From a virus, in the IMG/VR virus record IMGVR_UViG_3300044712_002679, positions 116,406 through 180,405 of that record: 64,000 bases of DNA; one strand, written 5' to 3'. Shown one piece after another: positions 15,883 through 46,673 of the stretch (positions are counted from its first letter, which is position 1; each line of letters starts with the position of its first letter). The notes beneath the pieces are model-generated. The model was not told the origin of the DNA. It worked only from the letters and a program-made list of their open reading frames with translations, and made no database searches. The position numbers and the translations under genes were made by a program.

Positions 15883-16201
15883 ATCTGATTTTATTTATTT
15901 TTTGTAATTTTAACTTTCTATCATTTCGTAATATTAATACATTAATTTCATTAGCACCACTAACATTATCATCAATTTTTTTAACATTATCTAACATTTC
16001 AGAATTTAATATTTCAATACTATTACCCTTTAAATCATTTACTACACTACCTATTTTTGGATATGTTGGATATGTTAACGGTAATTTTGTTTTTCGGCAA
16101 AGAAATTCAAATATTAAAGTAGATCCATAATTTAAAGGATTCCAATCTTTTTCATTTGAAATAATCCATGTATTATAAAAAATATATCCATAATATTTCA
16201 T
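15869..16201 (-). CDS. Hypothetical protein
   Basis: 110-aa ORF overlapping neighbours by a few nt (operon-like). Confidence 0.55.
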   Translation of the reverse strand: MKYYGYIFYNTWIISNEKDWNPLNYGSTLIFEFLCRKTKLPLTYPTYPKIGSVVNDLKGNSIEILNSEMLDNVKKIDDNVSGANEINVLILRNDRKLKLQKINKIRYDKK

Positions 16202-17154
16202 AATAAAATTCTTCCTTTATTTGGAAATTTGTAATTTTTAACTATTTCGTTATATACTTTATCGACTGTTGGATGACATTTATAAATATTTGGATCAGGA
16301 TCAATATCTTGACCCACTGTTTCTGGATTATCTAAACAAAAAGCTACAGGTGGCATAATATTATATTTACTGTTATATTTAATGCAATATTTCATATCTG
16401 ATGCACAAAATAATTTACAATCACCTAAAATATATGAATATTTATAATTTTGATATCCTTTTCTATATGGTGATCTCAATCTTGGATCAATTGAACTACC
16501 CAATTGAATAATATGTGTATCTGTTGTACCAGCCAAATGTAATATTCCGGAGTCCATTGTAATTACCATTGATGATTTATTTAAAATATGCCAAGTCTGA
16601 TGAATATTTATTTTATTAATTAGATTAAGTCCATTTTTAACATCTATATCATAAACAGGCTTCTGTATTTTATAATTTCCGTGTTCAACAGCATCTTTAC
16701 CAATTAATACTATCGGAATATTAATTTTGTTTATTTCATTTACTAGTTCTTGCCATCGTTCTTTTTCCCAACTTCTAGATGGCCAAGATTTAACAGGATG
16801 CATCACAATATAATTTTCTGGTAAATTAGATATCTCTTCATATTCATCAGGAAAAAATTCAATTTTCATTTCTTCGGGTAATAATTGAAATCCGGCACTA
16901 ATAGAATGAATTTGTCTAATATCTGTTCTAGTGTGAAGAAATTTATCGGGTCTAAAAGTTTCAATAAATAAATCACCATCATCTGGTGTTTGGTTATCAG
17001 TCAATATTATATATGGATAATTTTTAAGTAATTCTTTTTGATATGTGTAAACATAAATATTTTGATCATAGATTTCACTAAGATATTTTATTGTTGGAAT
17101 AGCACATAATGTATCACCGACACTTTGAGAACCAATTAAAACTAATATTTTCAT
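16198..17154 (-). CDS. Glycosyltransferase family 9 (heptosyltransferase-like)
   Basis: MKILVLIGSQSVGDTLCAIPTIKYL and VITMDSGILHLAGTTDTHIIQLG match GT9 motifs (ILVIr.s.lGD....P and DSG..HLAaa.g.P...lfG); start set at ATG 17154. Confidence 0.7.
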   Translation of the reverse strand: MKILVLIGSQSVGDTLCAIPTIKYLSEIYDQNIYVYTYQKELLKNYPYIILTDNQTPDDGDLFIETFRPDKFLHTRTDIRQIHSISAGFQLLPEEMKIEFFPDEYEEISNLPENYIVMHPVKSWPSRSWEKERWQELVNEINKINIPIVLIGKDAVEHGNYKIQKPVYDIDVKNGLNLINKINIHQTWHILNKSSMVITMDSGILHLAGTTDTHIIQLGSSIDPRLRSPYRKGYQNYKYSYILGDCKLFCASDMKYCIKYNSKYNIMPPVAFCLDNPETVGQDIDPDPNIYKCHPTVDKVYNEIVKNYKFPNKGRILL

Positions 17155-17197
17155 TCTAATTATATACATTTTATAGTTTAAGTTTTAATAAAAATTG

Positions 17198-17205
17198 TAT
17201 ATTTG
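17198..17205 (+). promoter_or_regulatory. -7 promoter box TATATTTG
   Basis: 48 nt upstream of ATG 17254 in a divergent intergenic region. Confidence 0.5.
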
Positions 17206-17253
17206 CATAAAAAATTTTTTCATTTTTAATATATATCTAAAAAAAACAAAAAT

Positions 17254-17925
17254 ATGGCTAAATTATTAAAATATGAATCTTTTTTGAATGAAAAAAAATT
17301 GAATTTAGATAACACATATGAATATTTGAAAAAAGTTACTAAAAAATGTAATTATGAACAATCCCAACATTTTTATATGAAAGAACCAATTGAAATTGGA
17401 ACATGTAAAAGTGGTAAATTTTATTTAAATTATTTAAGTGTTAATTATTATGATGATCATTTAGCATTTTGGATTATATATAATGAAAGACCAGATAAAT
17501 TATTTGGCACATCTTGGGATTCATCCGTAATATGGGAAGAAGAAGGTAAATTGAATTATATTGATGAAAACATCAAAGAAGAATTTAAATTATATCCAAA
17601 TTTTATGGAAATTATTGCAGAAAAAATCAAATCATATGATGATTTAGATAACTGGTGTAAATATTTAGTTGATCTTGGTTTAAAATCTAGAAAATATCAT
17701 CGTTGGGCAATATCAGCATCTATAAAAGATAAATTAACATGGGATGAAAGAATAGAATGGACAAAAAATCAAATTGAAATTGACAAATTATTGAATCGTC
17801 ATTCTAAACCTGTTGAAGAAAAACGATTGAAAGATATGTTAACTTTGGGTGAAGTTGAATATGATAAAAAAATGAATAAACAGAATAAAGAAATTGAAGA
17901 TATTTTAAAAGAAATGGATTTATAA
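17254..17925 (+). CDS. Hypothetical protein
   Basis: 223-aa ORF. Confidence 0.65.
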   Translation: MAKLLKYESFLNEKKLNLDNTYEYLKKVTKKCNYEQSQHFYMKEPIEIGTCKSGKFYLNYLSVNYYDDHLAFWIIYNERPDKLFGTSWDSSVIWEEEGKLNYIDENIKEEFKLYPNFMEIIAEKIKSYDDLDNWCKYLVDLGLKSRKYHRWAISASIKDKLTWDERIEWTKNQIEIDKLLNRHSKPVEEKRLKDMLTLGEVEYDKKMNKQNKEIEDILKEMDL

Positions 17926-18615
17926 TAAGTGACATATTTTTTTAGCTGCTTCAACACAAGACAATACATCATGTTCACAATAGTTTTTAATTCTTTCTAA
18001 TTCACCACGTTCCCAATAACTAGTGTGGACTTCTTTTCCACACATATCAGTTTTTGGACTTTCGATATTTAAACAATATAACATATCATCGAATGATGAT
18101 GTTTCTAATGTTCCTATACTTCGCCACACTTCAGATAAATCGAATACTGGCATATCCCATGGTTTAACATCAAATGTTTTTAATATCTTAGGTATTTCTA
18201 AACCATATGACAACATTTTTTTATTCATCCAGGGAATGTCAAATCCCTTTATATAATATCCACATAGTTGATATAAAGTTTTATTTGCGTTAGAAAAAAT
18301 CGAATGTGATTTTTTCATGATTTTTTCTTCATCATCATCATAACATGATATGATTTTAACATTTCCTTTTGTTGCTGTTGCAATTGATACACAAACAGTT
18401 TTACCAAATTCAGGCATAATACCTGCCTTTTTAATATATACTATATTTGGATCACCTGCCCATTCAGCACTTCCTGATGCAGATGATGCCCTACGTCTTT
18501 CTAACTTATTCATAAATAAATCATATCCCCGTACATCATTTACTTTTAATGTTTCTAAATCGGGATATTTGCCGACAGTTTCTATATCGAAATATATTAA
18601 TTCACCATAATTCAT
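17920..18615 (-). CDS. Stand-alone 3'-5' exonuclease (DEDDy, PolB-exonuclease-like)
   Basis: ExoI IYFDIETVG, ExoII GYYIKGFDIPWM, ExoIII YCEHDVLSC. Confidence 0.75.
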   Translation of the reverse strand: MNYGELIYFDIETVGKYPDLETLKVNDVRGYDLFMNKLERRRASSASGSAEWAGDPNIVYIKKAGIMPEFGKTVCVSIATATKGNVKIISCYDDDEEKIMKKSHSIFSNANKTLYQLCGYYIKGFDIPWMNKKMLSYGLEIPKILKTFDVKPWDMPVFDLSEVWRSIGTLETSSFDDMLYCLNIESPKTDMCGKEVHTSYWERGELERIKNYCEHDVLSCVEAAKKICHLL

Positions 18616-18653
18616 ATTTTATTATAGTGAAAAAAATAAAAAAGGTTAAAAAA

Positions 18654-18671
18654 AAGAACCTTTCGGTTCTT
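18654..18671 (-). terminator. Rho-independent terminator
   Basis: AAGAACC TTTC GGTTCTT; on the minus strand followed by an 8-T run. Confidence 0.65.
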
Positions 18672-18976
18672 TCTTAATCAAATAATAAATCTTTTTATGT
18701 TATATTGTGTTCAAGATTATACAGCTTTATAATTTGATCATCTGTTACCCGATTTGGATCAAATGGTGTATCAAAACCATATTTCATCATCAACCACATC
18801 TGATCATCATTAGTTAAATTATTCCACCAAAGTCACGATAAAATTGCTTATGTCTTTTATATCGCACAATTCTCCTTTTTATAATAGGGATTATGTCGTA
18901 ATAGAATATACCAATTAACAATATTGTAAAAAATATTATTAGCATAATACTAAAAAAATGCATAATTTGTTCCATA

Positions 18977-19564
18977 TTATTTAATATATGCTAAACATTT
19001 GTTTTTTGCTTCTGTAAGTTCAATGAATTTATCTTGACTACCACCTTTATCAGGATGATATATTTTAGATAATTCACGATATTTAGACTGAACATCATCT
19101 TTAGTGGCATCAGTAGTCAACCCCAAGAAATCAAATGATTCTCTTGGTACTAAACTATTAAAGAATAAGGATGCCAAAAAACCGAAATGTGCAAATGGAT
19201 CAAATCCATCAAATGGATCATTCCATCTTCGATATTCTTCCCGTCTACGTTGATTTTCTTCTTTTTCTCTACGTCTACGTTCCATTTCTGTTGGAAACAA
19301 ATCTTCACGCATTTTAACTATAACTGATGCATAAAAATAATTCCAAAGTTTTTCTGGCAATTGACCAGCAGTTTTTTTATCAATACCATCCCATTTCATT
19401 CGAATTGCACGAACAGCATTTTCGAATCCTTTGATATTTTGATAAGAATTTCCAACTTCAAGTAGTGTTAGAAAATCTTGTGTTAAATCAGCAATAAATT
19501 CATTATGCTTAAAATTAACACCATGTAATAAATTGTACTTTTTTTGATAATCTAATGTTTTCAT
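18977..19564 (-). CDS. J-domain (DnaJ-like) protein, J domain at C-terminus
   Basis: DFLGLTTDATKDDVQSKYRELSKIYHPDKGGSQDKFIELTEAKNKC with HPD tripeptide; start set at ATG 19564 because the promoter box lies inside the longer ORF. Confidence 0.8.
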   Translation of the reverse strand: MKTLDYQKKYNLLHGVNFKHNEFIADLTQDFLTLLEVGNSYQNIKGFENAVRAIRMKWDGIDKKTAGQLPEKLWNYFYASVIVKMREDLFPTEMERRRREKEENQRRREEYRRWNDPFDGFDPFAHFGFLASLFFNSLVPRESFDFLGLTTDATKDDVQSKYRELSKIYHPDKGGSQDKFIELTEAKNKCLAYIK

Positions 19565-19588
19565 TGTTGTTGTTTTTAAATGATGACA

Positions 19589-19596
19589 CAAAGATA
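19589..19596 (-). promoter_or_regulatory. -7 promoter box TATCTTTG (minus strand) with conserved leader
   Basis: Minus-sense CTATCTTTGTGTCATCATTTAAAAACAACAATG; 24 nt to the ATG. Confidence 0.65.
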
Positions 19597-19647
19597 GTAA
19601 TAATTTTTTTAATATTACCAAAATATTGTAGTTTTTTCAAAAAAAAA

Positions 19648-19673
19648 GGAAGGCTATACAGTTTAAGCCTTCC
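19648..19673 (-). terminator. Rho-independent terminator
   Basis: GGAAGGC / GCCTTCC stem, 12-nt loop, T-run on the minus strand; 3' of gene 19928..20329. Confidence 0.6.
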
Positions 19674-19927
19674 CAAAAATTTTAAGATATTATTTTATTC
19701 AATGATCAATTGAATATGGGTCAATATTCTTAATAAACCCTTACGTTTGATTAGGTTACAAACCTTTAAAAAAACCGTTTCTCCACTATATTTTTCATTA
19801 ACGTTGAAAAACATCTCCAAACTAGAACCCAAAAAATCATACGACTGTCAAATTAAGATTATGATCCGATTAACGTTGAACGATCTTAATTTATATAATA
19901 TATAATGAAGTTAAAAAAAAGTTTATT

Positions 19928-20329
19928 TTATTTACAATAATAGCAAAAATTATAACCTGAATTAACCCGTCTAGTCAAACATTTTTGACACCATTCATTA
20001 TTTCCTTTGCGCAATTCTATTTCCGATTTAGTTAAAGCAACATTATAATTTTGTTTTCGATTGGTTATTTTATTTAATTTTGGATTATATTTTTTAATCA
20101 AGTCATATTCTAAATCAAGCATATCTGTTTGATTTTCACATATTTTTATTACTTCAAAAATCAAATCCTTTCCATTAGCTTTATGCCAACGAAATCTATC
20201 ATTTGGAACTTGGACTGTTGTACCAATATAGACAAGTTCTTTTGTTTTTTTATCAAGACCTTTATAAATATAAAAACCTTTTGAAAAAATAAGATTTTTA
20301 TTTTTTGCACACAATAAATCAGATTCCAT
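19928..20329 (-). CDS. GIY-YIG domain nuclease with C-terminal Zn finger
   Basis: GFYIYKG...LVYIGTT...NDRFRWHK...LEYDLIKKYNPKLN (GIY, YIG, R, H, E, N positions) and CQKC...CYYC. Confidence 0.7.
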   Translation of the reverse strand: MESDLLCAKNKNLIFSKGFYIYKGLDKKTKELVYIGTTVQVPNDRFRWHKANGKDLIFEVIKICENQTDMLDLEYDLIKKYNPKLNKITNRKQNYNVALTKSEIELRKGNNEWCQKCLTRRVNSGYNFCYYCK

Positions 20330-20706
20330 TATCCAAGTTTTCTTAAATAAATTAATTGTAGTGGACTAACTTTACCATATTTTTTCAATGTTGCTAATAT
20401 ACTTTTGTAGAATTTTCTGTCATTTACTGATAAACGACTATTTAGATCATATAACTGTTTGAAATGTGTATAGCTAACAGAAACCCAATCATCAGGTACT
20501 TTGTCCAACTTATTATCTAAATTGTTGTAAATTTTAGTCACAGCACCAAAAGATGCTTGTTTTTTACCATTATCTGTCGCAATTTTTATCGCTTTAATCC
20601 ACAATTCTGGTTCTTCAATATGTCGCATATCCTGCATCATAAAAAATTCTTTTGGATATACAGGTGATTTTACATTTTCGTTAAATTCAACAAATTTGGT
20701 TTTCAT
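20329..20706 (-). CDS. Hypothetical protein
   Basis: 125-aa ORF, start/stop overlap with downstream gene. Confidence 0.6.
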   Translation of the reverse strand: MKTKFVEFNENVKSPVYPKEFFMMQDMRHIEEPELWIKAIKIATDNGKKQASFGAVTKIYNNLDNKLDKVPDDWVSVSYTHFKQLYDLNSRLSVNDRKFYKSILATLKKYGKVSPLQLIYLRKLG

Positions 20707-20727
20707 ATACCTATATATATTAAAAAA

Positions 20728-20871
20728 TTATTTAATAAAATCGGATGTGTTTCTATGTTCCCAAAATTTTCTACATTTAACAGCAGTATTCTTTTTTTCG
20801 AGTTTACAGTTCCCATATTCTGCACATTTTCTACACAAGATGATGTATGATGTATTTTTTTCAGTTTTCAT
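20728..20871 (-). CDS. Hypothetical small Cys-rich protein (47 aa)
   Basis: Hand-read ORF MKTEKNTSYIILCRKCAEYGNCKLEKKNTAVKCRKFWEHRNTSDFIK; below track threshold. Confidence 0.3.
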   Translation of the reverse strand: MKTEKNTSYIILCRKCAEYGNCKLEKKNTAVKCRKFWEHRNTSDFIK

Positions 20872-20878
20872 ATACCAA

Positions 20879-21616
20879 TTATTTTAATCTTGTTATAGTT
20901 ATAATAACACCACCAACACTAGTTCCACTTGTTTTGAATGCACCCCTTGGAATATTTTCGATATTAGCATTAACTTCACTTAGCCAATTTCTAAATTCGG
21001 TTTCTTTTTTATTATTTGAATTTTTCCAATGTTCAGATGCGATTGATACCAATTTGCCACCACATTTCAATAATTCATACATATGTTTTACGTGGTCGAT
21101 ATCTTGATTGGCTGTGAATGGTGGATTTGCTATAATTTTATCATATACAGGTTGATTCGGAATCATTAAAAAATCTCCAACTTCATGATGAAAACCTTTT
21201 TTATTTAGTATTAATGAATTTGCTTCCATCAATTCAATTGCAAGAACTTGACAATCAATATTTTTTCTTAATATCGCTTCGATTATAGCACCTTGACCTG
21301 CACTAGGTTCTAATACAATATCATTTTCTTTTAAATCTGCCAAATTCACTAATTTATCTGCAAGTTCACTTGGTGTTTCAAAAAATTGATATTCTTTTTT
21401 TAAATTACGTTTTTCACCATTGGATATTTGATTAAGTAAATCAGTAGGATCAGAATTAAACACAAACCCAAACGTTTTACCACCAACCCATTTACCACCA
21501 ATCAAATTAAGTGATTTTGCTACATCTTGGTATAATTTTCTTTCGAGTTGAACATTTGGTAATTTAACAACATTACCATCAACGGTACATTGAATTAATA
21601 CTTCTTCTTTTGTCAT
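20879..21616 (-). CDS. N6-adenine DNA methyltransferase (orphan)
   Basis: SAM motif I VLEPSAGQGAII and catalytic motif IV IIANPPFT; no adjacent restriction gene. Confidence 0.8.
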   Translation of the reverse strand: MTKEEVLIQCTVDGNVVKLPNVQLERKLYQDVAKSLNLIGGKWVGGKTFGFVFNSDPTDLLNQISNGEKRNLKKEYQFFETPSELADKLVNLADLKENDIVLEPSAGQGAIIEAILRKNIDCQVLAIELMEANSLILNKKGFHHEVGDFLMIPNQPVYDKIIANPPFTANQDIDHVKHMYELLKCGGKLVSIASEHWKNSNNKKETEFRNWLSEVNANIENIPRGAFKTSGTSVGGVIITITRLK

Positions 21617-21641
21617 AAAATTGTTGTTTTAAATGATTGTG

Positions 21642-21649
21642 CAAAGATA
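21642..21649 (-). promoter_or_regulatory. -7 promoter box TATCTTTG (minus strand) with conserved leader
   Basis: Minus-sense CTATCTTTGCACAATCATTTAAAACAACAATTTTATG; 25 nt to the ATG. Confidence 0.65.
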
Positions 21650-21679
21650 GTTAATTTTTTATTAAATAACAAAAAAAAA

Positions 21680-21695
21680 GAGGATTTAAATCCCC
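21680..21695 (-). terminator. Rho-independent terminator
   Basis: Minus-sense GGGGAT TTAA ATCCTC followed by a 9-T run; 3' of gene 21700..23271. Confidence 0.55.
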
Positions 21696-21699
21696 TTTT

Positions 21700-23271
21700 T
21701 TAATCTAATGTTGTGTATTCAAACCCATCTTTGGTTTTAAAGAATACTATATGTTGAAATTTGCCTAATTTATTTATAATTCCGTGTGCATTAATCCAAG
21801 TAGTTAAACCCTTATTATAATTTAATCGTAATTGTGTAGATGTTCCAACACAACAACTTCCAGAAACCCTAGAAATTGCGTGTGTGTGTCCAACCACATT
21901 TTTAACCGACAATTTTGAAAATTGATTCATTCCACCACGACTGCCAGATGCACCTAAATTTCCATGCATTGAACACAAATATCCATTAACAACAATATTA
22001 TCATTATATGTTAAACAATGAAAATTTGGATATTTTTTATTAATAACATAAGGTACGATACCATTTGGTGCTTCACCTTTTAATATAACACTAGCATATT
22101 CCATATAAGGAATTGCATTTTTTAGTGAATTCATTTTTCTCCAATCAGTTTCACGCAAAAATCTATCAACATGTTCATCATGATTTGATTTCACTATATA
22201 AACATCATAATCTTTTATTTGTGATAACCATTCTAACATTTCATCCAATTCTTTTTGAAGCGAATTTGATCCGTTCATTTCCATTTCGTGTTGTAAAAAT
22301 GGATCATTTGTGTTATGATGTGTTATAGAATATGAATCCATTATATCATGAATAAACAATGTTTTTGGATATAATTTTTGACATAAATCATTTAATGTTT
22401 TATCAATAATTTCAGTATTTACACATTTTGTATGAATATCACCCATTATCAACGCATCAACAGTTTCAATTCTTTTAACAACACCATTATTTACATGATA
22501 AAACAAATCAATAAATTCGCCAGTATCTTTTGCGCTTACTTGTCTAAAGAAATAAGTATCTTCATCTTTTATTTCAACAATAGCAAACCCACTCGAAAAA
22601 TGAAATTCCCCTTTTTTACCAGCCTTTGTATCAGAAAAATTTTGTTTTGTAACTGCACCAGTAGTAAACATTAACTTTGGTTTATATTCATTTATAACTG
22701 GAACTGTTTTTAATTCTATTTTTGGATGTCCAACAACACAAGAATAATCACCTGTCATACCTTCAAGTCCCATTAATGGTGAATAAGCTGTTGGTTGTAT
22801 TTTAACATCACCTAGTACTTGTATTGATTTATTTAAGTTGTGCCTATTTAACGTTAAATGTGGTACAATTTTTTCATCCCACCAATCATTATCAGTATTT
22901 GTATTTATACTTGTTGGGTTGTGATAACGAAAAGGAATTACCAAAATTTCAGCATCAAGAACATCTTTATATGATAACATATTATTCCATAACCCAATAT
23001 TTACACTTGTTGCATTTTGTGCAGAAGTAATAAAATAATATTTTTTTGATTTATCGTGTTGTTTTAATTTTGCAAGTTTTATTTGTTCAGGTATAATAAT
23101 TACTTTTTCTTTTATTCCTAATTTTTCTGAACACCATCTTCTAAGTGTTCTTTCGGATTTATTTGTAAAATCCATAAGTATTTTCATCCTATCATCCCAA
23201 GTTTTTGTTCTATCCCAATATATACTACGAATTTTTTCAATATCTTCATCTTTTAGGTCTTTAAATTTCAT
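21700..23271 (-). CDS. Calcineurin-like metallophosphoesterase with N-terminal HTH-like region
   Basis: ALIMGDIHT, VKSNHDEHVDRF, VVGHTHA motifs in canonical order. Confidence 0.7.
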   Translation of the reverse strand: MKFKDLKDEDIEKIRSIYWDRTKTWDDRMKILMDFTNKSERTLRRWCSEKLGIKEKVIIIPEQIKLAKLKQHDKSKKYYFITSAQNATSVNIGLWNNMLSYKDVLDAEILVIPFRYHNPTSINTNTDNDWWDEKIVPHLTLNRHNLNKSIQVLGDVKIQPTAYSPLMGLEGMTGDYSCVVGHPKIELKTVPVINEYKPKLMFTTGAVTKQNFSDTKAGKKGEFHFSSGFAIVEIKDEDTYFFRQVSAKDTGEFIDLFYHVNNGVVKRIETVDALIMGDIHTKCVNTEIIDKTLNDLCQKLYPKTLFIHDIMDSYSITHHNTNDPFLQHEMEMNGSNSLQKELDEMLEWLSQIKDYDVYIVKSNHDEHVDRFLRETDWRKMNSLKNAIPYMEYASVILKGEAPNGIVPYVINKKYPNFHCLTYNDNIVVNGYLCSMHGNLGASGSRGGMNQFSKLSVKNVVGHTHAISRVSGSCCVGTSTQLRLNYNKGLTTWINAHGIINKLGKFQHIVFFKTKDGFEYTTLD

Positions 23272-23326
23272 ATTTAAATTTTTTTTTTTCTTATATAATA
23301 TATTTTAAATTATTTGTTTAATAATA

Positions 23327-23761
23327 TTATGTTAATTGTTGCTTATGATTCATCAACTTATAAAAATCATATTCAAAAATCATATTTTTTGGTATTGAAA
23401 AAGTTGAAAACATGTCAGCCATTTCTTGACACGAATAATTATTTAAATTATCACCAGTACCAGAATATGCTACAATAAATAGAAATTTTAATCCATTTTC
23501 ACTTTCAGCATATTCATATAATTCTTTAATTTGTTTAATTATAAAATCTTTTGAAATTGATGGATGTATTTTTTTTGTTAAATCTTTTGTTATAATTGCA
23601 TAAGAATTACCTTGTAATCCTGATGCTTGCCCGTAAATTGCCCCACATCTTAATCTTGCAAACAAAGCGGATCCTTTCCCGTGGCGACCTTGATTATTAG
23701 ATCCAAATACAAAAATTTGATTTGGTTTAATATTTTTTATTTTTCCTTTATAAACTAACAT
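23327..23761 (-). CDS. SLOG/DprA-LOG-like Rossmann-fold protein
   Basis: IFVFGSNNQGRHGKGSALFA...GLQGNSYAIITKD matches the FVFGSN..G.HG.G.A...G.SYAIpT signature seen in phage SLOG-type proteins (by memory of the pattern). Confidence 0.45.
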   Translation of the reverse strand: MLVYKGKIKNIKPNQIFVFGSNNQGRHGKGSALFARLRCGAIYGQASGLQGNSYAIITKDLTKKIHPSISKDFIIKQIKELYEYAESENGLKFLFIVAYSGTGDNLNNYSCQEMADMFSTFSIPKNMIFEYDFYKLMNHKQQLT

Positions 23762-23826
23762 AATATTATTTAATTCAATATTTTAAAAAAGTTTAACATT
23801 TATTGTACGATATTTAAAAACTTTTT

Positions 23827-23834
23827 TATATTTG
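23827..23834 (+). promoter_or_regulatory. -7 promoter box TATATTTG
   Basis: 47 nt upstream of ATG 23882 in a divergent intergenic region. Confidence 0.5.
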
Positions 23835-23881
23835 TCCACTAATATAGAATATTAATAATTTAAAAATTCAAAATAAACAAT

Positions 23882-25027
23882 ATGAGTGAAAATCAAGAAA
23901 ATATAAATTCTGAAAAAACATATAATAAGTTTTCTGTGAGATATATGTATACTAAAGATGAGTGTTATCAGGAATCATTAAATTATAATTCCCGAATTGA
24001 ATTCGCTAGGGAGTCAAAAAGTATTTATAAGTGTGCAGAATTGAATTGTTGGTTAAATGATTTTCCACATTTAAGAACAAAAGATACCCCAGTAAAAACA
24101 AGATATACTAAGTTTGAATGTTATAATATGTCATTGAAATGTAAAAACACAAGAGAATTTAAAGCTAAATATAAATTTTATTACATGTGTTCAGCATTAA
24201 ATGGTTGGTTGGATGAATTTAAATTAAACCAAAAAACTAAAACTAAAGAAAAATTAACAAAAGCACAATGTAAAAGATCAGCAAAAAATTATACTACCCG
24301 AAGTGAATTTGCAGCTAAAGGAAAAAAATATTATGAATTTGCTACTAAAAATGGATGGATAAAAGAAATATGTTCACATATGATTGAATCTGAACACGAT
24401 AAAAATTATTGGACAAAAGAAAATTGTAATAGTGAAGCCTTGATATATAAAACTAGAAAAGATTTTGAACTTGGGAATCCATCAGCTTATACACAATCAA
24501 AATTAAAGGGTTGGTTGGATGATATTTGTTCACATATGGAAATAGAAATTAAAGATGAATTTTGGACAAAACAACGTTGTCAAATTGAAGCTGCAAAATA
24601 TCCGAAAAAAAGTCATTTTTCTTATTATTCAGAACCAGCATATAGAATAGCAAGTCAAAATGGATGGTTAGATGATATATGTAAACATATGTTAGATGAT
24701 GATAATGAAAGATTTTTAAAACTAACAGAAAAAGAAATATGTTTCAATGAAGCTTTGAAATATTCTACAATGAAAGACTTTTTTGAAAATTCTCCTGAAA
24801 AATTTGAAAAATGTAGAATAAATAAATGGTTTTATGAAGCATGTAAACATATGCCATCACAAACTTTACCTGTTGATTATTGGACATATGAAAGATGTGC
24901 AATTGAAGCAAAAAAATATAAAACAATAAGAGATTTTAGATATCACGCTAAAGGTGCATACAATAAAATATTAGAATTCAAATGGAAAGAATTAGATCAG
25001 CATTTAAGAAATGATATTTCAATATGA
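23882..25027 (+). CDS. Tandem-repeat protein (7 x ~46-aa WTKE.C..EA.KY..R.EF......AY..A...GWLDDIC.HM)
   Basis: Seven successive repeats read in the translation; translationally coupled (ATGA overlap) to the primase gene. Confidence 0.75.
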   Translation: MSENQENINSEKTYNKFSVRYMYTKDECYQESLNYNSRIEFARESKSIYKCAELNCWLNDFPHLRTKDTPVKTRYTKFECYNMSLKCKNTREFKAKYKFYYMCSALNGWLDEFKLNQKTKTKEKLTKAQCKRSAKNYTTRSEFAAKGKKYYEFATKNGWIKEICSHMIESEHDKNYWTKENCNSEALIYKTRKDFELGNPSAYTQSKLKGWLDDICSHMEIEIKDEFWTKQRCQIEAAKYPKKSHFSYYSEPAYRIASQNGWLDDICKHMLDDDNERFLKLTEKEICFNEALKYSTMKDFFENSPEKFEKCRINKWFYEACKHMPSQTLPVDYWTYERCAIEAKKYKTIRDFRYHAKGAYNKILEFKWKELDQHLRNDISI

Positions 25028-26190
25028 CAGAAGAATTAGATAAAAGTTATATTAAGTCGGTTATTCAACTGATTTTAAATAAAGTTCACGTTGAACCACA
25101 GAAAAGAAACATTAAAGAATTTTCTGATAGATTTAATTTTGCTTGTCCAATATGTGGTGATAGTCATAAAAATATAAATGCAAAACGTGGAAATATGTAT
25201 TTCAATACGATGCATTATGTCTGTTTTAATGAAAAATGTGGTAGGTCATTTATAAAACTATTAAAAACATTTGAAGTTGATATTGATCTTCAAAAGAAAA
25301 TGGATATATATAATTATATTGATAATAATGTACATTGGAATAAAAAAGAAGATAATTATGTCTTGCAACGTCTTGATAAATTAATTGACATTGATTTTCT
25401 TATTGAAACTTTAAATAATAATCCATCATCGCAATTTTCAAAATTTGGACCAATTAAAACCAATTCAGCAGCATATCAATATTTGAAATTTGAACGGTTA
25501 ATTGATAACTTTGAAAATATATATGAAGCTGAATATACAGTAACACCTAAATGGAAAGAAAAAGTAATCGTCATTCTTAATAAAAGTGGTAATAAGGTAC
25601 TTGGATTACAAATACGTAACTTAAAATCTGGTGATAAAAGATGGTTTAAAATTTTTAATTTTGAAAAACTTCATAATATGGTTCATCCCGAAGATCCACT
25701 TGATGAACTTGAAGCATTATCTTATAATAAAATATCAAATTTTTATAATATATTAAATGTTGATTGGGATAAACCAGTAACTATATTTGAAGCTTATTTA
25801 GATTCAACATTTTTTCCCAACGCAATAGGTGCTATTGGACTAAATAGTATTAATGATATGGGGTTTTTATTAAGTGACGATCTTGATACCCGTTTTTTCT
25901 TTGATCAAGATGAAGTTGGAATAAAAAATTCAATAGTGATGTTAGACAAAGGTTATAAAGTATTTTTGTGGCAAAAATTGAATGTTGATTTTTTAAAAAA
26001 TAAAGTTGATAAATATCAAGCAGAAAAAATATTATTAAAAATAAAAGATTTAAATAAATTGGTACAGGATATGAAAAATACTGACCCTTATAATAAATTA
26101 AAATTAGATAAATATTTTTCAAATGACACATTTGATAAAATATATTTGGATTTTACAAAATACCCAAAAAATTCAAAATCTAAAAATTAA
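25024..26190 (+). CDS. DNA primase (Zn-ribbon + TOPRIM)
   Basis: CPICGDSHKNINAKRGNMYF...VCFNEKCG zinc ribbon; TOPRIM-like TIFEAYLDS and FFFDQDEVG. Confidence 0.7.
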   Translation: MTEELDKSYIKSVIQLILNKVHVEPQKRNIKEFSDRFNFACPICGDSHKNINAKRGNMYFNTMHYVCFNEKCGRSFIKLLKTFEVDIDLQKKMDIYNYIDNNVHWNKKEDNYVLQRLDKLIDIDFLIETLNNNPSSQFSKFGPIKTNSAAYQYLKFERLIDNFENIYEAEYTVTPKWKEKVIVILNKSGNKVLGLQIRNLKSGDKRWFKIFNFEKLHNMVHPEDPLDELEALSYNKISNFYNILNVDWDKPVTIFEAYLDSTFFPNAIGAIGLNSINDMGFLLSDDLDTRFFFDQDEVGIKNSIVMLDKGYKVFLWQKLNVDFLKNKVDKYQAEKILLKIKDLNKLVQDMKNTDPYNKLKLDKYFSNDTFDKIYLDFTKYPKNSKSKN

Positions 26191-27068
26191 TTTTCTTCGA
26201 AATATGAAAATTTGTGTAATTTTTTAATAAAAATTTGACCTTGCTTGCGTATATAAGCTTCCACTTTTTTAATATTCTTATTATCAAAATATTTTCCAAT
26301 ATTATTTTTTTCTGTTTTAGATAATTCATCAAAATTAAAATTAAAATTACACATATCTTTATAATACTTAAGTGGATATTTATTTTCTTCTTCTTTTATT
26401 GTATTTAATAAATTTTTGGATTTTTTCACTTTAAGATAAAATTCGTGTAATCTTGCGGATAATTCATCTTCGTTTGCCAAGTAACAATAAACTAAAAATT
26501 TTTTATATGATTCAGAACCATCGGTTGTTGAAGTTAAATCAGTAATTGATGCGATACTACCAAATCTAACTTCATGTATAAATAAGTCAACAATATCACC
26601 CTTAAAAATGCGTTTAGTATCATCTGAAAAAAATTCATTTCGACTACGAGAATATAATATCTTACTTTTAATAGTTCTATCTACTAAATGTTTAATTTCG
26701 TGAGTTAATAGTTCTTTAGTATCATATTCTTTATTTTCAATACCCAACATTATATCAACATAATATTTATTTCTTTTGTTTTTTTGTTTTTTTGGTATAA
26801 TATTAACTGAAGCTATTGCTCGATTATAATATATACTAACTATAATATTACTTATAAAAACTAATTCTGTATTTTTTAATTGCCATGATCCATTAATATA
26901 AACTTCATTGGGCTTTAAAATATTTATATTAAATTCTGAAATATCAACAATTGTTTGGGTTTCTTTTTTATCAATCGCATCTTCAATTTGTTTCCACATT
27001 TTTTCGACAATTTCAAGTGTTAATTTATTTACACCCAATTTTTCAAATATTTTAAAAGTTGTTATCAT
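26187..27068 (-). CDS. Hypothetical protein with HExxH motif (possible metallopeptidase)
   Basis: LLTHEIKHLVDR; no other support. Confidence 0.35.
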   Translation of the reverse strand: MITTFKIFEKLGVNKLTLEIVEKMWKQIEDAIDKKETQTIVDISEFNINILKPNEVYINGSWQLKNTELVFISNIIVSIYYNRAIASVNIIPKKQKNKRNKYYVDIMLGIENKEYDTKELLTHEIKHLVDRTIKSKILYSRSRNEFFSDDTKRIFKGDIVDLFIHEVRFGSIASITDLTSTTDGSESYKKFLVYCYLANEDELSARLHEFYLKVKKSKNLLNTIKEEENKYPLKYYKDMCNFNFNFDELSKTEKNNIGKYFDNKNIKKVEAYIRKQGQIFIKKLHKFSYFEEN

Positions 27069-28525
27069 AATTCAATAATTTTGATTTTTTTCTTTTTACA
27101 CAATGAAATCAATTTTTCTTTATTTTCTTGGTCTGATTCAGATACTTTAAGATAGTTATCAGTTAATCTGATTTCTTTAATGTAATTTATTGGTATTTTA
27201 TTTGCATGAATTTGAATTTCCGAATATAAATTATAAAATCTATCCCCTTCGATAAATACTTTACCTTTACTTGTTTCAAAAACACGACCATCATTTTTAT
27301 GATTTAAATTTTCTAAAATTGTTTTTGATTCATATTTATATTCTGGATAAAATTTTTCTTTTACTAAATTTGAATAAATTTTTTTTAATTCTTTTTTCTT
27401 ATATATTGTATCCACATTTTCTGCCACACTATCCAATAATGTAAAAGTCACTTTAAATTTTTCATAAATAGATGGTTTAAAATATATCATAACCGAACCA
27501 TGACCAGTTTCATATCCACCATCATTAAACCAATCCGGAATACAAAATATCAAATCTTCTGTTCCAAATTTTTCAAGTTCAATTTCTTTTCTTTCATTCC
27601 ACCAAGTTTCATTTTCATCTATAATTTGAATTTCTTTTTTTAATTCATTTCTACTCATCAAAAATCCTTTTTCAAGTATTGATATTACGGATTCATATGA
27701 TGATAAGTGTCTAGCAAATGGATATTCATCATTTTCAGCATCATTTTCAGCATCATTTTCAGCATCATTTTCAGCATCATTTTCAGCATCATTTTCAGCA
27801 TCATTTTCAGCATCATTTTCAGCATCATTAAATAATATACCAATTCCTTGTATTTGATTATTATTAGTTTGATATGTAAATTCTTTATATATTTTACCTT
27901 CTTTAATTTCATTCCAAAATTTAACAACACCTGGACAAGTTGAATCGTTAATGTCATGAAACATAACGATTTTAGCATATTTACCCAAATTTTCATAATC
28001 GGTAGATACACCTTCATATGAATGATCAGCATCAATAAATATAAAATCATATTTTTGACCTTTAAAATCTTCACTTGTTCCTATATGTAAATTAATGTAT
28101 TGTTTTATATCTTCAGTTAATCCTTTATCTGAAATATCAACACCAATAGATTTTAAATTTGGATTTTTGAGTTTTAAAATATTATCAATTAATATATGGG
28201 TTCCACCTTTAAATATACCCACCTCAACATATGTATTTATATCATATTTCAACAATTCTAATAAAGCATCAGCTATTTGTTTTGGGGTTTGAAACATAGC
28301 TTCTTCGTTTCTATCATAAACCATATATTGATTCCATTCACCATAACCATCTCTATCTTCTACACATAAACCATAATCGCAAACTAAATTTATAATATCA
28401 ACTTCTTTAATATCGGTCGCATTTAATTTAGAAATACTTTCAATTAATTTTTTATTTTTACTAAATTTGTTATCTTCAAATATATTTATATTTTTGTGCG
28501 TGAAATCACTAAACCGTTTAATCAT
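27065..28525 (-). CDS. Class I SAM-dependent methyltransferase fused through an (NDAE)x8 linker to an unknown C-terminal domain
   Basis: VEVGIFKGGTHILI...IGVDISD...YDFIFIDADHSYEGV...MFHDI (MT motifs); C-terminal FARHLSSYESVISILEKGFLMSRNEL; start set at ATG 28525. Confidence 0.65.
   Translation of the reverse strand: MIKRFSDFTHKNINIFEDNKFSKNKKLIESISKLNATDIKEVDIINLVCDYGLCVEDRDGYGEWNQYMVYDRNEEAMFQTPKQIADALLELLKYDINTYVEVGIFKGGTHILIDNILKLKNPNLKSIGVDISDKGLTEDIKQYINLHIGTSEDFKGQKYDFIFIDADHSYEGVSTDYENLGKYAKIVMFHDINDSTCPGVVKFWNEIKEGKIYKEFTYQTNNNQIQGIGILFNDAENDAENDAENDAENDAENDAENDAENDAENDEYPFARHLSSYESVISILEKGFLMSRNELKKEIQIIDENETWWNERKEIELEKFGTEDLIFCIPDWFNDGGYETGHGSVMIYFKPSIYEKFKVTFTLLDSVAENVDTIYKKKELKKIYSNLVKEKFYPEYKYESKTILENLNHKNDGRVFETSKGKVFIEGDRFYNLYSEIQIHANKIPINYIKEIRLTDNYLKVSESDQENKEKLISLCKKKKIKIIEL
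27727..27822. repeat. 12-bp tandem repeat x8 (CATCATTTTCAG), in-frame (NDAE x8)
   Basis: Read directly in sequence. Confidence 0.95.
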
Positions 28526-28620
28526 AATCAAAAAATCTATTTTACATATATATAAAAAAATTAAACAACATTCTAATAAAAAAAACATATATAAAACTGT
28601 ACAATAAATAAAAAATATTA

Positions 28621-29154
28621 ATGAAGCAAAAAGAATCAGAAAACAGAATTAATTATTCAATTAAAGATTTAACCGTAAGGTTAGTTGGTGATAATGTTAC
28701 AAATGGTGTAATTGACACTAAAAGTGCAATAAAATTGGCTAGAGATATGGAATTAGATTTGGTCGAAATTTCGGGTCCAGTTAACGGAAATCCATCAATT
28801 TGCAAAATAGTTGACTATCAAAAATATCTTTACGACAAAAAGAAAAAAGATAAAGATCAAAAGAAAAAGCAAAAATTAAGTCAGTCAGAAGTCAAAGAAA
28901 TTAGAATGACCCCGCATACTGATGAACACGATTTTAATTTTAAATTAAATCATGCTAAAAACTTCTTAACCAATAACGATAAAGTATTAGTTTCAGTATT
29001 CTTTAAGGGTAGAGAAATATCATATAAAGAACAAGGTCAAATTGTTTTATTAAAATTTGCAAAGGAATTGGAAGATATTGGCATACCTGAGTATTTACCT
29101 AAACTAGAAGGAAAAAAAATGCTAATGATGATTAAACCTAAACCAAAAAAATAA
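28621..29154 (+). CDS. infC: Translation initiation factor IF-3
   Basis: RINYSIKDLTVRLVGDN...MELDLVEIS...PSICKIVDYQKYLYDKKKK...VKEIRMTPHTDEHDFNFKLNHAKNFL...VFFKGREISYKEQG aligns along the full length with E. coli IF3. Confidence 0.9.
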   Translation: MKQKESENRINYSIKDLTVRLVGDNVTNGVIDTKSAIKLARDMELDLVEISGPVNGNPSICKIVDYQKYLYDKKKKDKDQKKKQKLSQSEVKEIRMTPHTDEHDFNFKLNHAKNFLTNNDKVLVSVFFKGREISYKEQGQIVLLKFAKELEDIGIPEYLPKLEGKKMLMMIKPKPKK

Positions 29155-39680: not shown

Positions 39681-40418
39681 ATGTCAAAAATAATCGAATT
39701 AATAAAGATCCATTTTGGTGATAATTCATTTACACCATATGGGCAATGGATTAAAATATTTAAACTTTTTGTTGAAAATTCATCTGAATCAACCAAACAT
39801 AAAATTGATCAAATAGATGAATTTATAAATAAATGGATTGAAAAAGAATATGGTGATTGGTCTATTCCAAATACAATTATAGAAGCCAAAGAAAAATTAG
39901 AAAATAAAATTAATGTTTTTTATGAAATATTAAAAGAATATTCTATAAATAATGAAAAAATTAAAAAAATTATAATAATTCCTGATACTAATGCGCTAAT
40001 ACAAAAACCTGATCCAAAGTCATATAAACAATTAATGAATAACGATAATCTAACGATTATTTTTTTACCTACTGTGTTAAGTGAACTAGATGAACTTAAA
40101 ATTAAAACTTCAAATTTAGATTTTCAAGAAAAAGTAAAATCAGTAATAAATAGATTAAAAGGATATAGAAAACAAGGCAACTTAATTGATGATGATGTAA
40201 CAGTCGAAAAAACAATAAAACTTAAAATGGTTGCATCAGAACCAAATTTTGATAAAACGTTATCTTGGCTTGATAGAAATAACAATGATGATCGGATAGT
40301 TGCAAGTGCATTAGAAATTCAACGGGATAATCCTTCTTCTGTTGTTTGTTTAATAACAAGTGACATAAATTTTCAAAATAAAATAATGATGGCAAAATTA
40401 CCATACAAAGATATATAG
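39681..40418 (+). CDS. PIN-domain protein (putative ribonuclease)
   Basis: C-terminal half: IIIPDTNALI, LPTVLSELDEL, NNNDDRIVASAL, LITSDINFQNK supply the four acidic PIN positions in order. Confidence 0.65.
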   Translation: MSKIIELIKIHFGDNSFTPYGQWIKIFKLFVENSSESTKHKIDQIDEFINKWIEKEYGDWSIPNTIIEAKEKLENKINVFYEILKEYSINNEKIKKIIIIPDTNALIQKPDPKSYKQLMNNDNLTIIFLPTVLSELDELKIKTSNLDFQEKVKSVINRLKGYRKQGNLIDDDVTVEKTIKLKMVASEPNFDKTLSWLDRNNNDDRIVASALEIQRDNPSSVVCLITSDINFQNKIMMAKLPYKDI

Positions 40419-41808: not shown

Positions 41809-41811
41809 TTT

Positions 41812-43515: not shown

Positions 43516-43518
43516 TTT

Positions 43519-44823: not shown

Positions 44824-44877
44824 AATAAAAATTTTTTAAAAAACTTACAATAAATTTGCTTTTTCGTAATAAAAACT

Positions 44878-44885
44878 TATATTTG
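44878..44885 (+). promoter_or_regulatory. -7 promoter box TATATTTG
   Basis: 28 nt upstream of ATG 44914; a second match TAAATTTG at 44851..44858. Confidence 0.55.
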
Positions 44886-44913
44886 CACAATGTTTAATTA
44901 AAAATATAAGTTT

Positions 44914-46670: not shown

Positions 46671-46673
46671 AAA

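What the first reader, a model, noticed from the sequence alone, without database searches (positions are those of the whole stretch)
23882..25027. Seven-fold ~46-aa repeat protein translationally coupled to the primase
The protein is almost entirely seven copies of W-T-K-E-x-C-xx-E-A-x-K-Y-x-(T/S)-R-x-(E/D)-F-x(6-7)-A-Y-xx-A-xx-N-G-W-L-D-(D/E)-I-C-x-H-M. Its stop overlaps the primase start (ATGA). The repeat has the same skeleton as the WGDWLG repeat of the 40-47 kb array (aromatic-S/T-x-E-E-[AC]...[YL]..S...[FW]...Y...GW). The two may be distant relatives. The coupling suggests a DNA- or replisome-associated role.
Basis: seen in the sequence. Interest (0 to 1): 0.5.

Follow-up and report, generated by a model that had tools for sequence, protein, structure and literature searches.

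The report
Nuclease-less homing-endonuclease DNA-binding repeat protein
A gene just upstream of the primase in a huge AT-rich phage encodes seven copies of a small helical module that in thousands of other proteins is fused to mobile DNA-cutting enzymes. This copy has no cutting domain, so it is best read as a derivative of a selfish homing-endonuclease gene, not as a part of the replication machinery.

Summary
ORF 23882-25027 (381 aa) is seven copies of a W-T-K-E-x-C...G-W-L-D-E-I-C-x-H-M module, with a period of 51-54 aa. Its stop overlaps the ATG of a T4 gp61-type primase gene.

The module defines a large, apparently uncharacterised family: 5500 cluster representatives, and PHROG 20046 of unknown function. 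In about three quarters of members, a 5-16 repeat array carries one GIY-YIG nuclease domain, usually embedded inside the array. Other members carry HNH, helicase or zinc-finger partners. In vibriophages the nuclease-bearing genes are presence/absence cassettes.

The window copy and its 62-84% relatives have no nuclease yet show purifying selection (dN/dS 0.18-0.28). Linkage to primase is confined to the closest clade. In other relatives of this primase, the upstream slot holds a zinc-finger gene with a Vsr-like tail, or neither repeat-type gene. The ATGA overlap is absent even in the 84% relatives.

Profile-profile comparison with the 40-47 kb repeat (Pfam INT_rpt) finds no homology (probability about 1%).

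Most likely this is a sequence-specific DNA-binding protein descended from a free-standing homing endonuclease. DNA binding itself is inferred, not shown.

The parts
23882..25027 (+). ORF of 381 aa: nuclease-free array of seven ~50-aa helical modules (PHROG 20046 family)
   Evidence: AF2 model with pLDDT 86.6 and pTM 0.32
23939..24085 (+). repeat 1 (aa 20-68); atypical ending WLNDFPHL, no C-x-H-M
   Evidence: E = 2.1e-13
24095..24244 (+). repeat 2 (aa 72-121); no C-x-H-M ending
   Evidence: E = 1.6e-9
24245..24394 (+). repeat 3 (aa 122-171)
   Evidence: E = 1.9e-18
24401..24550 (+). repeat 4 (aa 174-223), closest to the family consensus
   Evidence: E = 4.9e-25
24554..24703 (+). repeat 5 (aa 225-274)
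   Evidence: E = 9.5e-22
24716..24865 (+). repeat 6 (aa 279-328)
   Evidence: E = 3.4e-15
24872..25018 (+). repeat 7 (aa 331-379), divergent terminal copy as in most family members
   Evidence: E = 2.8e-15
25024..25027 (+). ATGA stop/start overlap with the primase gene; specific to this genome
25024..26190 (+). T4 gp61-type DNA primase (388 aa); conserved backbone gene, not part of the repeat family
23762..23881 (.). 120-nt AT-rich intergenic region between the divergently oriented 144-aa A1S_2505-family ORF and the repeat gene; presumed promoter region, not demonstrated
   Evidence: the promoter scan gives no more sites than shuffled sequence
17170..25023 (.). variable block, with the repeat gene at its right edge. 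It is absent from relative L028, where the glycosyltransferase-like gene (window 16198-17169) lies 53 nt from the primase start

Best explanation
The ORF encodes a nuclease-free member of a large family built from a ~50-aa four-helix module. That module normally serves as the DNA-targeting array of free-standing, mobile nucleases, mostly with one GIY-YIG catalytic domain embedded in or attached to the array.

The seven modules fold independently and are joined by flexible linkers. Inferred mechanism: they lie along DNA like beads on a string. Conserved basic and polar residues would contact the backbone, and the variable exposed residues of helices 2-3 would read the sequence.

The gene occupies a variable slot directly upstream of a conserved primase gene. 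Such slots next to conserved genes are where free-standing homing-endonuclease genes insert (background knowledge). The tight junction with the primase is a by-product of that insertion, not a sign of partnership.

This lineage has no nuclease but is under purifying selection. It most likely acts as a sequence-specific DNA-binding protein: a regulator, or a protector of a homing site.

Shown: family membership, absence of a nuclease, modular fold, selective constraint, variability of the slot, and mobility of nuclease-bearing relatives. Inferred: DNA binding, and the present function.
For: 1. Fusion partners. Of the 120 best homologues, 113 carry a non-repeat segment longer than 60 aa, almost always a single one of about 95 aa lying inside a 5-11 repeat array. 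Pfam calls this segment GIY-YIG (PF01541) in every example tested.

2. Non-redundant sample. Among 128 cluster representatives, 97 have one GIY-YIG, 1 has two, and about 19 are repeat-only. Others carry HNH (PF01844), ResIII/DEAD helicase, or DUF4379 zinc fingers. Some carry Vsr-like, PD-(D/E)xK-like or T5orf172-like tails, judged by eye.

3. Family size. There are 5500 representatives at E <= 1e-3.

4. Mobility of nuclease-bearing members.
- Vibriophage R11Z has two tandem genes, RRR-GIY-RRR and RR-GIY-RRR.
- The collinear phage ValKK3 (85-98% nt identity) lacks exactly those 2.4 kb.
- A ~45-nt sequence is repeated at each cassette border.
- Related vibriophages carry 1-9 matching places per genome.
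- In BcepSauron the homologue is a lone plus-strand gene inside a minus-strand block.

5. Variable slot. Primase relatives L011, L012 and L033 carry a gene with DUF723-type zinc fingers and a Vsr-like tail directly upstream of the primase. L013, L015-L018, L028, L030 and L031 carry neither repeat type there.

6. No nuclease. There is no PF01541 hit, no hit to the family-specific GIY profile, and no unassigned stretch long enough to hold one.

7. Constraint. dN/dS is 0.18, 0.24 and 0.28 against the 84%, 70% and 62% relatives, all of which are also nuclease-free.

8. Structure. Seven modules have pLDDT above 90, linkers have low confidence, and pTM is 0.32.

9. Charge. Family modules average +3.15 net charge per 50 aa, and 84% of them are positive. 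The window protein has pI 8.9.

Against: Repeats 4 and 5 of the window protein are slightly acidic.

No target site could be identified.

Family members also flank a primase-domain gene, with 4-nt overlaps, in an unrelated Rhizobium phage. A recurrent link to primase genes is therefore not fully excluded, although that 68-kb genome has seven matching places.

Some repeat-only representatives from metagenomes may be truncated gene calls, so the nuclease-free fraction is uncertain.
Confidence: 0.7

Rival explanations
1. Replisome or primase accessory factor: the protein is made together with the primase through translational coupling and works with it on DNA.
For: ATGA overlap and no terminator between the two genes. 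Synteny holds in the closest clade, with equal divergence of both genes (84% and 84.7%). Family members flank a primase-domain gene in Rhizobium phage RHph_TM3_3_9.
Against: The overlap is absent in the 84% relatives. The 70% and 62% homologues are not next to a primase. Thirteen relatives of this primase lack the gene, and three of them have a different nuclease-type gene in the slot. Most family members are nuclease fusions standing alone in bacterial chromosomes or phage genomes.
Confidence: 0.07
2. Targeting subunit of a split nuclease: the array guides a separately encoded catalytic subunit, for example the stand-alone 133-aa GIY-YIG ORF at 19928-20329, so homing activity is retained in trans.
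For: A catalytic-domain-only GIY-YIG ORF lies 3.5 kb away (PF01541 at 5.3e-7). The array is under purifying selection.
Against: That ORF matches the family-specific embedded-GIY profile only weakly (E = 5e-4, 16 bits) and matches generic PF01541 better. It is on the other strand, with several unrelated genes in between. Co-occurrence in relatives was not tested.
Confidence: 0.08
3. Decaying remnant of a homing endonuclease gene with no present function.
For: The nuclease domain is missing. Repeats 1, 2 and 7 deviate from the consensus.
Against: The frame is intact. dN/dS is 0.18-0.28 over dS up to 0.93. The nuclease-free state is shared by relatives down to 62% identity, and the atypical ending of repeat 1 (WLNDFPHLRTK) recurs in a homologue.
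Confidence: 0.08
4. The module is a very distant homologue of the INT_rpt repeat of the 40-47 kb array (common origin of the two repeat types).
For: Both are four-helix modules of 50-64 aa strung on flexible linkers. Both start with an S/T-x-E-E-A/C helix and have aromatic anchors. Both types occur in nuclease-associated genes. DUF723/DUF4379 zinc fingers, which accompany INT_rpt in the window, also occur together with the present module in P0212, and by eye in P0223.
Against: hhalign probability is 0.4% and 1.2%, with at most 11 well-aligned columns. The spacing of the aromatic anchors differs: F22-Y30-W38 here against W22-Y43-W47 in INT_rpt. INT_rpt has an 11-residue proline-rich loop with no counterpart here. 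No Pfam INT_rpt hit was found for 75 single modules even at E <= 10.
Confidence: 0.12
5. The array binds something other than DNA, such as a protein or a cell-surface ligand.
For: There is no fold match to known DNA-binding domains. Helical repeat proteins often mediate protein-protein contacts.
Against: The module is combined with GIY-YIG and HNH nuclease domains (plus nuclease-like tails judged by eye), a helicase and nucleic-acid-type zinc fingers. Modules are basic on average. There is no signal peptide or structural-gene context.
Confidence: 0.05

Closest known systems
Free-standing GIY-YIG homing endonucleases (I-TevI, I-BmoI, T4 Seg proteins)
   Same: Family members combine a GIY-YIG catalytic domain with a modular, extended DNA-targeting region. 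They are solitary genes inserted between conserved genes, multi-copy in phage genomes, and polymorphic for presence among close relatives. Rhizobium phage EVB39_125 has the classical order, with the nuclease at the N-terminus and three modules at the C-terminus.
   Different: The window protein has no nuclease domain at all. In most relatives the nuclease is embedded inside the array, with modules on both sides. Canonical GIY-YIG homing endonucleases instead have an N-terminal nuclease and a C-terminal DNA-binding domain (abstract of PMC3664794). The targeting module is a 50-aa four-helix unit repeated 5-16 times, not the zinc finger, minor-groove helix and helix-turn-helix of I-TevI (background knowledge). 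Cleavage and homing were not tested for any member.
NUMOD / IENR nuclease-associated modular DNA-binding domains
   Same: The concept is the same: short modules, often repeated, shared among different homing-nuclease classes (background knowledge). The present module occurs with GIY-YIG and HNH domains, and with Vsr-like and T5orf172-like tails judged by eye.
   Different: No sequence match to any Pfam model, including the NUMOD models, for the whole protein or for 75 single modules.
PHROG 20046 and a probable newer Pfam model PF26058
   Same: The window protein matches phrog_20046 at 1.8e-39. PF26058 is precomputed on homologues, including P0057, which consists of six repeats only, so it probably models this module.
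   Different: The PHROG has no assigned function. PF26058 is not in the local Pfam copy, so its name and boundaries are unknown, and no paper mentions it.
INT_rpt (PF14882) with DUF723/DUF4379 zinc-finger arrays, as in window 40489-47426
   Same: These are also arrays of small helical modules on flexible linkers and are nuclease-free in this window. Zinc-finger relatives with a Vsr-like tail occupy the same slot upstream of the primase in sister phages.
   Different: No detectable sequence homology. Unit length and loop structure differ.
TALE and TALE-like programmable repeat arrays
   Same: Tandem array of helical modules, probably DNA-binding, with conserved core positions and a few highly variable exposed positions.
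   Different: Modules are 20-41% identical rather than near-identical. The prediction is beads on a string (pTM 0.32), not a continuous superhelix. No one-module-one-base code is known or tested.

Membership tests
Repeat family of PHROG 20046 (GIY-YIG-associated ~50-aa module) | Several tandem copies of the W-T-K-E-x-C ... G-W-L-D-E-I-C-x-H-M module | tested here: met
   Seven copies with E from 1.6e-9 to 4.9e-25 against a 778-unit profile; phrog_20046 at 1.8e-39; 908 and 5500 homologues
GIY-YIG homing endonuclease | GIY-YIG catalytic domain | tested here: not met
   No PF01541 hit. No hit to the family-specific embedded-GIY profile in this ORF. Residues 20-379 are fully occupied by repeats.
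GIY-YIG homing endonuclease | DNA-targeting region shared with active family members | tested here: met
   Same module as in 113 of 120 top homologues that carry a non-repeat segment, identified as GIY-YIG where tested
GIY-YIG homing endonuclease | Free-standing gene in a variable slot between conserved genes, with presence/absence among relatives | tested here: met
   Slot upstream of the primase is occupied differently or lacks both repeat types in 13 relatives. Clean cassette indel for nuclease-bearing members in vibriophages.
GIY-YIG homing endonuclease | Site-specific cleavage of the gene-less allele and homing | not testable with these tools
   Needs in vitro cleavage or co-infection experiments
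INT_rpt (Pfam PF14882) | Match to the INT_rpt profile or detectable profile-profile homology | tested here: not met
   No Pfam hit; hhalign probability 0.4% and 1.2%
Primase/replisome accessory protein | Conserved linkage with the primase gene across relatives | tested here: not met
   Linked only in the closest clade. Absent next to 13 related primases. The 62-70% homologues sit elsewhere.
Primase/replisome accessory protein | Conserved translational coupling | tested here: not met
   L002-L005 have TAA plus a 12-nt spacer before the primase ATG
NUMOD/IENR modules | Match to Pfam NUMOD models | tested here: not met
   No hit at E <= 1 for the protein or E <= 10 for 75 modules; HMMER filters may hide very weak matches
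TALE-like programmable arrays | Near-identical repeats forming a continuous superhelix, with specificity residues at fixed positions | tested here: not met
   20-41% identity between repeats. Independent modules, pTM 0.32. Variable positions exist, but a code is untested.
Known anti-phage defence systems (PADLOC) | Match to a defence-system protein model | tested here: not met
   No hit for the window protein or for P0004; one weak sub-threshold hit for P0006

The most novel reading that the evidence does not exclude
The ~50-aa module could be a general, modular DNA-recognition unit: each module would read a fixed few base pairs through the variable exposed residues of helices 2-3. Nature would then combine it freely with GIY-YIG, HNH, Vsr-like and helicase domains. 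Nuclease-free arrays such as this one would be domesticated sequence-specific binders, for example occupying and protecting the phage's own homing site near the primase gene against related endonucleases, or regulating the replication module. If so, the family would be a new programmable DNA-targeting scaffold with an unusual architecture in which the nuclease sits in the middle of the array.
Probability: 0.15. Interest if true: 0.75.

Novelty: new variant of a known kind. Interest (0 to 1): 0.35.

Why it matters
For this window, the result removes a tempting but wrong inference. The repeat protein is not a conserved partner of the primase. It marks a hot spot where selfish nuclease genes land next to a conserved replication gene in huge phages.

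More broadly, the module defines a very large family with no described function that I could find (5500 cluster representatives). Its architecture is unusual for GIY-YIG enzymes, because the nuclease sits inside a long array of independent helical modules. The family also contains lineages that lost the nuclease yet stay under selection.

That makes it a candidate for two things: a new DNA-targeting scaffold, and a case study of how homing-endonuclease parts are domesticated. All of this rests on inference from domain fusions. No member has been tested, as far as the searched literature shows.

Tried and rejected
**Database searches on the protein**
- Pfam, NCBIfam and PADLOC scans found nothing usable.
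- A Pfam scan of 75 single modules at E <= 10 found no consistent family.
- PDB sequence searches with the protein and with a single-module profile found nothing below E = 0.4.

**Fold searches**
- Foldseek against PDB gave best E = 1.7.
- Foldseek against viral models found only family members, plus one 'endonuclease-like protein' at E = 7e-3.
- The afdb50 library was unavailable.

**Sequence scans around the gene**
- The promoter scan gave no more sites than shuffled sequence, and no terminator was found.
- DNA repeat searches found only the coding repeats and no candidate binding-site array.

**Literature**
- Five searches found no description of this module or of PF26058.
- The paper on systematic discovery of DNA-binding tandem repeat proteins (PMC11417379) does not mention GIY-YIG or phages.

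**Ideas considered and dropped**
- The stand-alone GIY-YIG ORF at 19928-20329 as the lost nuclease half: only a weak match to the family-type nuclease.
- A defence-system role for the bacterial homologues: they are solitary genes among housekeeping genes and have no PADLOC match.

Full report
**Observation**

The window is 25% G+C. ORF 23882..25027 (+) encodes 381 aa. Anchoring on the G-W dipeptide shows seven repeats at residues 20-68, 72-121, 122-171, 174-223, 225-274, 279-328 and 331-379.

Each copy matches a profile built from 778 units of homologous proteins, with E from 1.6e-9 to 4.9e-25. In a six-frame search of the window, only this ORF matches.

The copies are 20-41% identical to each other. 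At the DNA level the period is 153-162 nt with 60-80% identity, too diverged for Tandem Repeats Finder. The repeat is therefore real, ancient and protein-level. The period is 51-54 aa rather than 46.

The TGA stop overlaps the ATG of ORF 25024..26190. That ORF is a primase: phrog_47 at 8.3e-19, and tblastn matches to annotated gp61-type primases and to 460-735-kb uncultured phages and Lak phages. The exact repeat protein is recorded on a contig of the 0.2-1 Mb class, so the window comes from a huge phage.

**What the module is**

Pfam, NCBIfam, PADLOC and PDB sequence searches give nothing for the protein. It does match PHROG 20046, of unknown function, at 1.8e-39.

A word-indexed search found 908 homologues. 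An exhaustive search of 1.84 billion cluster representatives found 5500 at E <= 1e-3 and 757 at E <= 1e-30.

I mapped the repeats on the best 120 hits. Of these, 113 carry a non-repeat segment longer than 60 aa. It is almost always a single segment of about 95 aa between two repeats, most often after the third or fourth of 5-11 repeats. Pfam identifies this segment as the GIY-YIG catalytic domain, for example P0004 residues 164-239, P0006 425-501 and P0009 403-477.

In the less redundant sample of 128 representatives:
- 97 have one such domain and 1 has two.
- About 19 are repeat-only.
- The rest combine the module with other partners:
  - HNH (PF01844, P0198);
  - a ResIII/DEAD helicase (P0219);
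  - DUF4379 zinc fingers (P0212);
  - by eye only: a DUF723-like finger (P0223), Vsr-like or PD-(D/E)xK motifs (P0172, P0190) and T5orf172-like tails (P0150, P0186, P0196, P0012).

A small module shared among several nuclease classes is what nuclease-associated DNA-binding modules look like (background knowledge on NUMOD domains). That is the main basis for inferring DNA binding.

The consensus is (K/R)xYWTKExCxEEAxKYxTRxEFxxxSxxAYxxAxKNGWLDEICSHM. The hydrophobic core is conserved, as is a Cys9/Cys43/His45 triad (82%, 88% and 96%). Positions 8, 10, 17, 20, 23-28, 31, 32 and 34 are highly variable. Modules carry a mean net charge of +3.15.

PF26058, a model absent from the local Pfam copy, is precomputed on P0057, which consists only of six repeats. 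It probably models this module. I found no paper on it.

**Structure**

AlphaFold2 with a 57-sequence alignment gives mean pLDDT 86.6 but pTM 0.32. The model shows seven well-predicted units, each with helices of about 8, 7, 9 and 4 residues, joined by low-confidence linkers. The array is therefore beads on a string, not a solenoid.

Helices 2 and 3 are separated by one residue and carry most of the variable positions. A helix-turn-helix-like reading head is plausible but not shown.

**Mobility of the family**

Twenty-five phage records hold homologues, often several per genome, with 1-9 matching places among near-identical KVP40-like vibriophages.

- In R11Z, two adjacent genes have the architectures RRR-GIY-RRR and RR-GIY-RRR.
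- ValKK3 is collinear at 85-98% nt identity but lacks exactly the 2.4 kb that holds both genes.
- A ~45-nt intergenic sequence recurs at each cassette border.
- In BcepSauron the homologue is a lone plus-strand gene in a minus-strand block.
- In bacterial genomes (a Shewanella chromosome and large bacterial-type metagenome contigs) the genes stand alone among housekeeping genes.

This is the behaviour of free-standing homing-endonuclease genes. Cleavage itself has not been tested.

**The window copy**

It has no nuclease. There is no PF01541 match, no match to a profile of the family's own embedded domain, and no unassigned stretch.

Its relatives at 84% (P0001, P0002), 70% (P0003) and 62% (P0005, eight repeats) are also nuclease-free. 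Nei-Gojobori dN/dS against them is 0.18, 0.24 and 0.28, with dS up to 0.93. This is a long-lived, constrained, nuclease-free lineage and not a fresh pseudogene. The nearest nuclease-bearing homologues are below 45% identity.

**Linkage to the primase**

- **Closest clade (L002-L005).** The gene precedes the primase and both genes are about 84% identical to the window's. There, however, the stop is TAA and the homologous primase ATG lies 12 nt downstream. The ATGA overlap is private to the window genome.
- **The 70% and 62% homologues.** Neither is next to a primase.
- **Relatives of the primase at about 40-72% identity.**
  - L011 and L012 carry, directly upstream, a gene with four or five DUF723/DUF4379 zinc fingers and a C-terminal FDF...IEY-G-QH tail. 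L012 gives a sub-threshold DUF2726 hit, and I read the tail as Vsr-like by eye.
  - L033 has a truncated ORF with the same Vsr-like tail motif.
  - L013, L015-L018, L028, L030 and L031 carry neither repeat type in the slot, and no repeat gene was found upstream in L034 or L035.
- **Backbone.** In L028 the order is glycosyltransferase-like gene, 53 nt, primase, IF-3. The window has 7.85 kb and 2.4 kb of extra genes at the two junctions.

The slot is thus a hot spot for different nuclease-type genes, and the repeat gene is a lineage-specific occupant.

One caveat remains. In the unrelated Rhizobium phage RHph_TM3_3_9, two annotated GIY-YIG genes flank a primase-domain gene with 4-nt overlaps, and the downstream one was confirmed here to carry three modules. 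That 68-kb genome has seven matching places, and conserved replication genes are typical neighbours of homing endonuclease genes (background knowledge).

**Relation to the 40-47 kb repeat**

Those six genes consist of Pfam INT_rpt (PF14882) units, some with DUF723/DUF4379 zinc fingers.

- Profile-profile comparison gives probability 0.4% (P = 0.16) and 1.15% over 11 columns.
- Neither profile hits the other's proteins.
- An AlphaFold2 model of ORF 46674-47423 (pLDDT 80, pTM 0.33) shows 64-aa units with helices of 10, 9, 5 and 5 residues and an 11-residue proline-rich loop.

The two modules share a general style: a four-helix bead starting with an acidic helix, plus aromatic anchors. Anchor spacing and loops differ, however.

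Homology is unsupported. Functional analogy is plausible, because both module types occur in nuclease-associated genes, and the zinc fingers that accompany INT_rpt here also occur together with the present module.

**Conclusion**

The best-supported reading is a nuclease-free, selectively maintained DNA-binding derivative of a free-standing homing endonuclease, sitting in a variable slot next to the primase (confidence about 0.7).

The current function is open. It could be a regulator, a site protector, or a targeting subunit for a separate nuclease such as the stand-alone GIY-YIG ORF at 19928-20329.

The specific gene is fairly ordinary. The family is large and unusual in architecture, and I found no description of it in the searched literature.

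Noticed in passing
window 28621-29154 (+): Phage-encoded translation initiation factor IF-3 (infC, TIGR00168 at 1.3e-49). It lies directly downstream of the primase in relatives L011, L028 and L030, so it is part of the conserved backbone of this huge-phage clade.
   Followed up: partly
window 19928-20329 (-): Stand-alone 133-aa GIY-YIG catalytic-domain ORF (PF01541 at 5.3e-7) with no DNA-binding region, 3.5 kb from the nuclease-less repeat gene. It matches the family-type embedded nuclease only weakly.
   Followed up: partly
window 40489-47426 (+): Six tandem paralogous genes made of INT_rpt (PF14882) units, some with DUF723/DUF4379 treble-clef zinc fingers, and none with a recognisable nuclease. 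Related zinc-finger genes with a Vsr-like tail sit upstream of the primase in sister phages (L011, L012, L033).
   Followed up: partly
window 27727-27829, inside ORF 27065-28588 (-): Perfect 12-nt tandem repeat of 8.6 copies, encoding (NDAE)n inside a methyltransferase-like protein (PF13578).
   Followed up: no
L004 60-458 (close relative of the window): A 132-aa ORF with a Cas12f1-like_TNB (TnpB-type) domain lies directly upstream of the repeat gene. The window has the A1S_2505-family ORF in that position, so another mobile-element trace lies at the same hot spot.
   Followed up: no
window 17170-25023 and 26191-28620: Relative L028 has the glycosyltransferase-like gene, primase and IF-3 almost contiguous. 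The window carries 7.85 kb (nine ORFs, including DnaJ-domain, exonuclease, methyltransferase and phrog_1745 'DNA transfer protein') and 2.4 kb of extra genes at these junctions, which marks a hyperplastic region.
   Followed up: partly
family-wide; window aa positions 9, 43 and 45 of each repeat: A conserved Cys/Cys/His triad (82%, 88%, 96%) in the module suggests a possible metal site with an unidentified fourth ligand. It is missing from repeats 1, 2 and 7 of the window protein.
   Followed up: no
P0001, P0008, P0090 (homologues): JGI names these repeat proteins 'isopentenyldiphosphate isomerase', which looks like a spurious annotation.
   Followed up: no
window 39681-40418 (+) and 47458-50097 (+): A PIN-domain ORF (PF13638 at 3.3e-14) precedes the INT_rpt gene array. 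An 879-aa ORF follows it, which by eye looks like a helicase with a methyltransferase-like tail; it was not scanned.
   Followed up: no
L023 1226-1273, 2519-2561, 3655-3700 (Vibrio phage R11Z): A ~45-nt intergenic sequence is repeated before and after each GIY-YIG/repeat cassette. It may be the promoter-type motif that mediates cassette shuffling in T4-like phages.
   Followed up: partly
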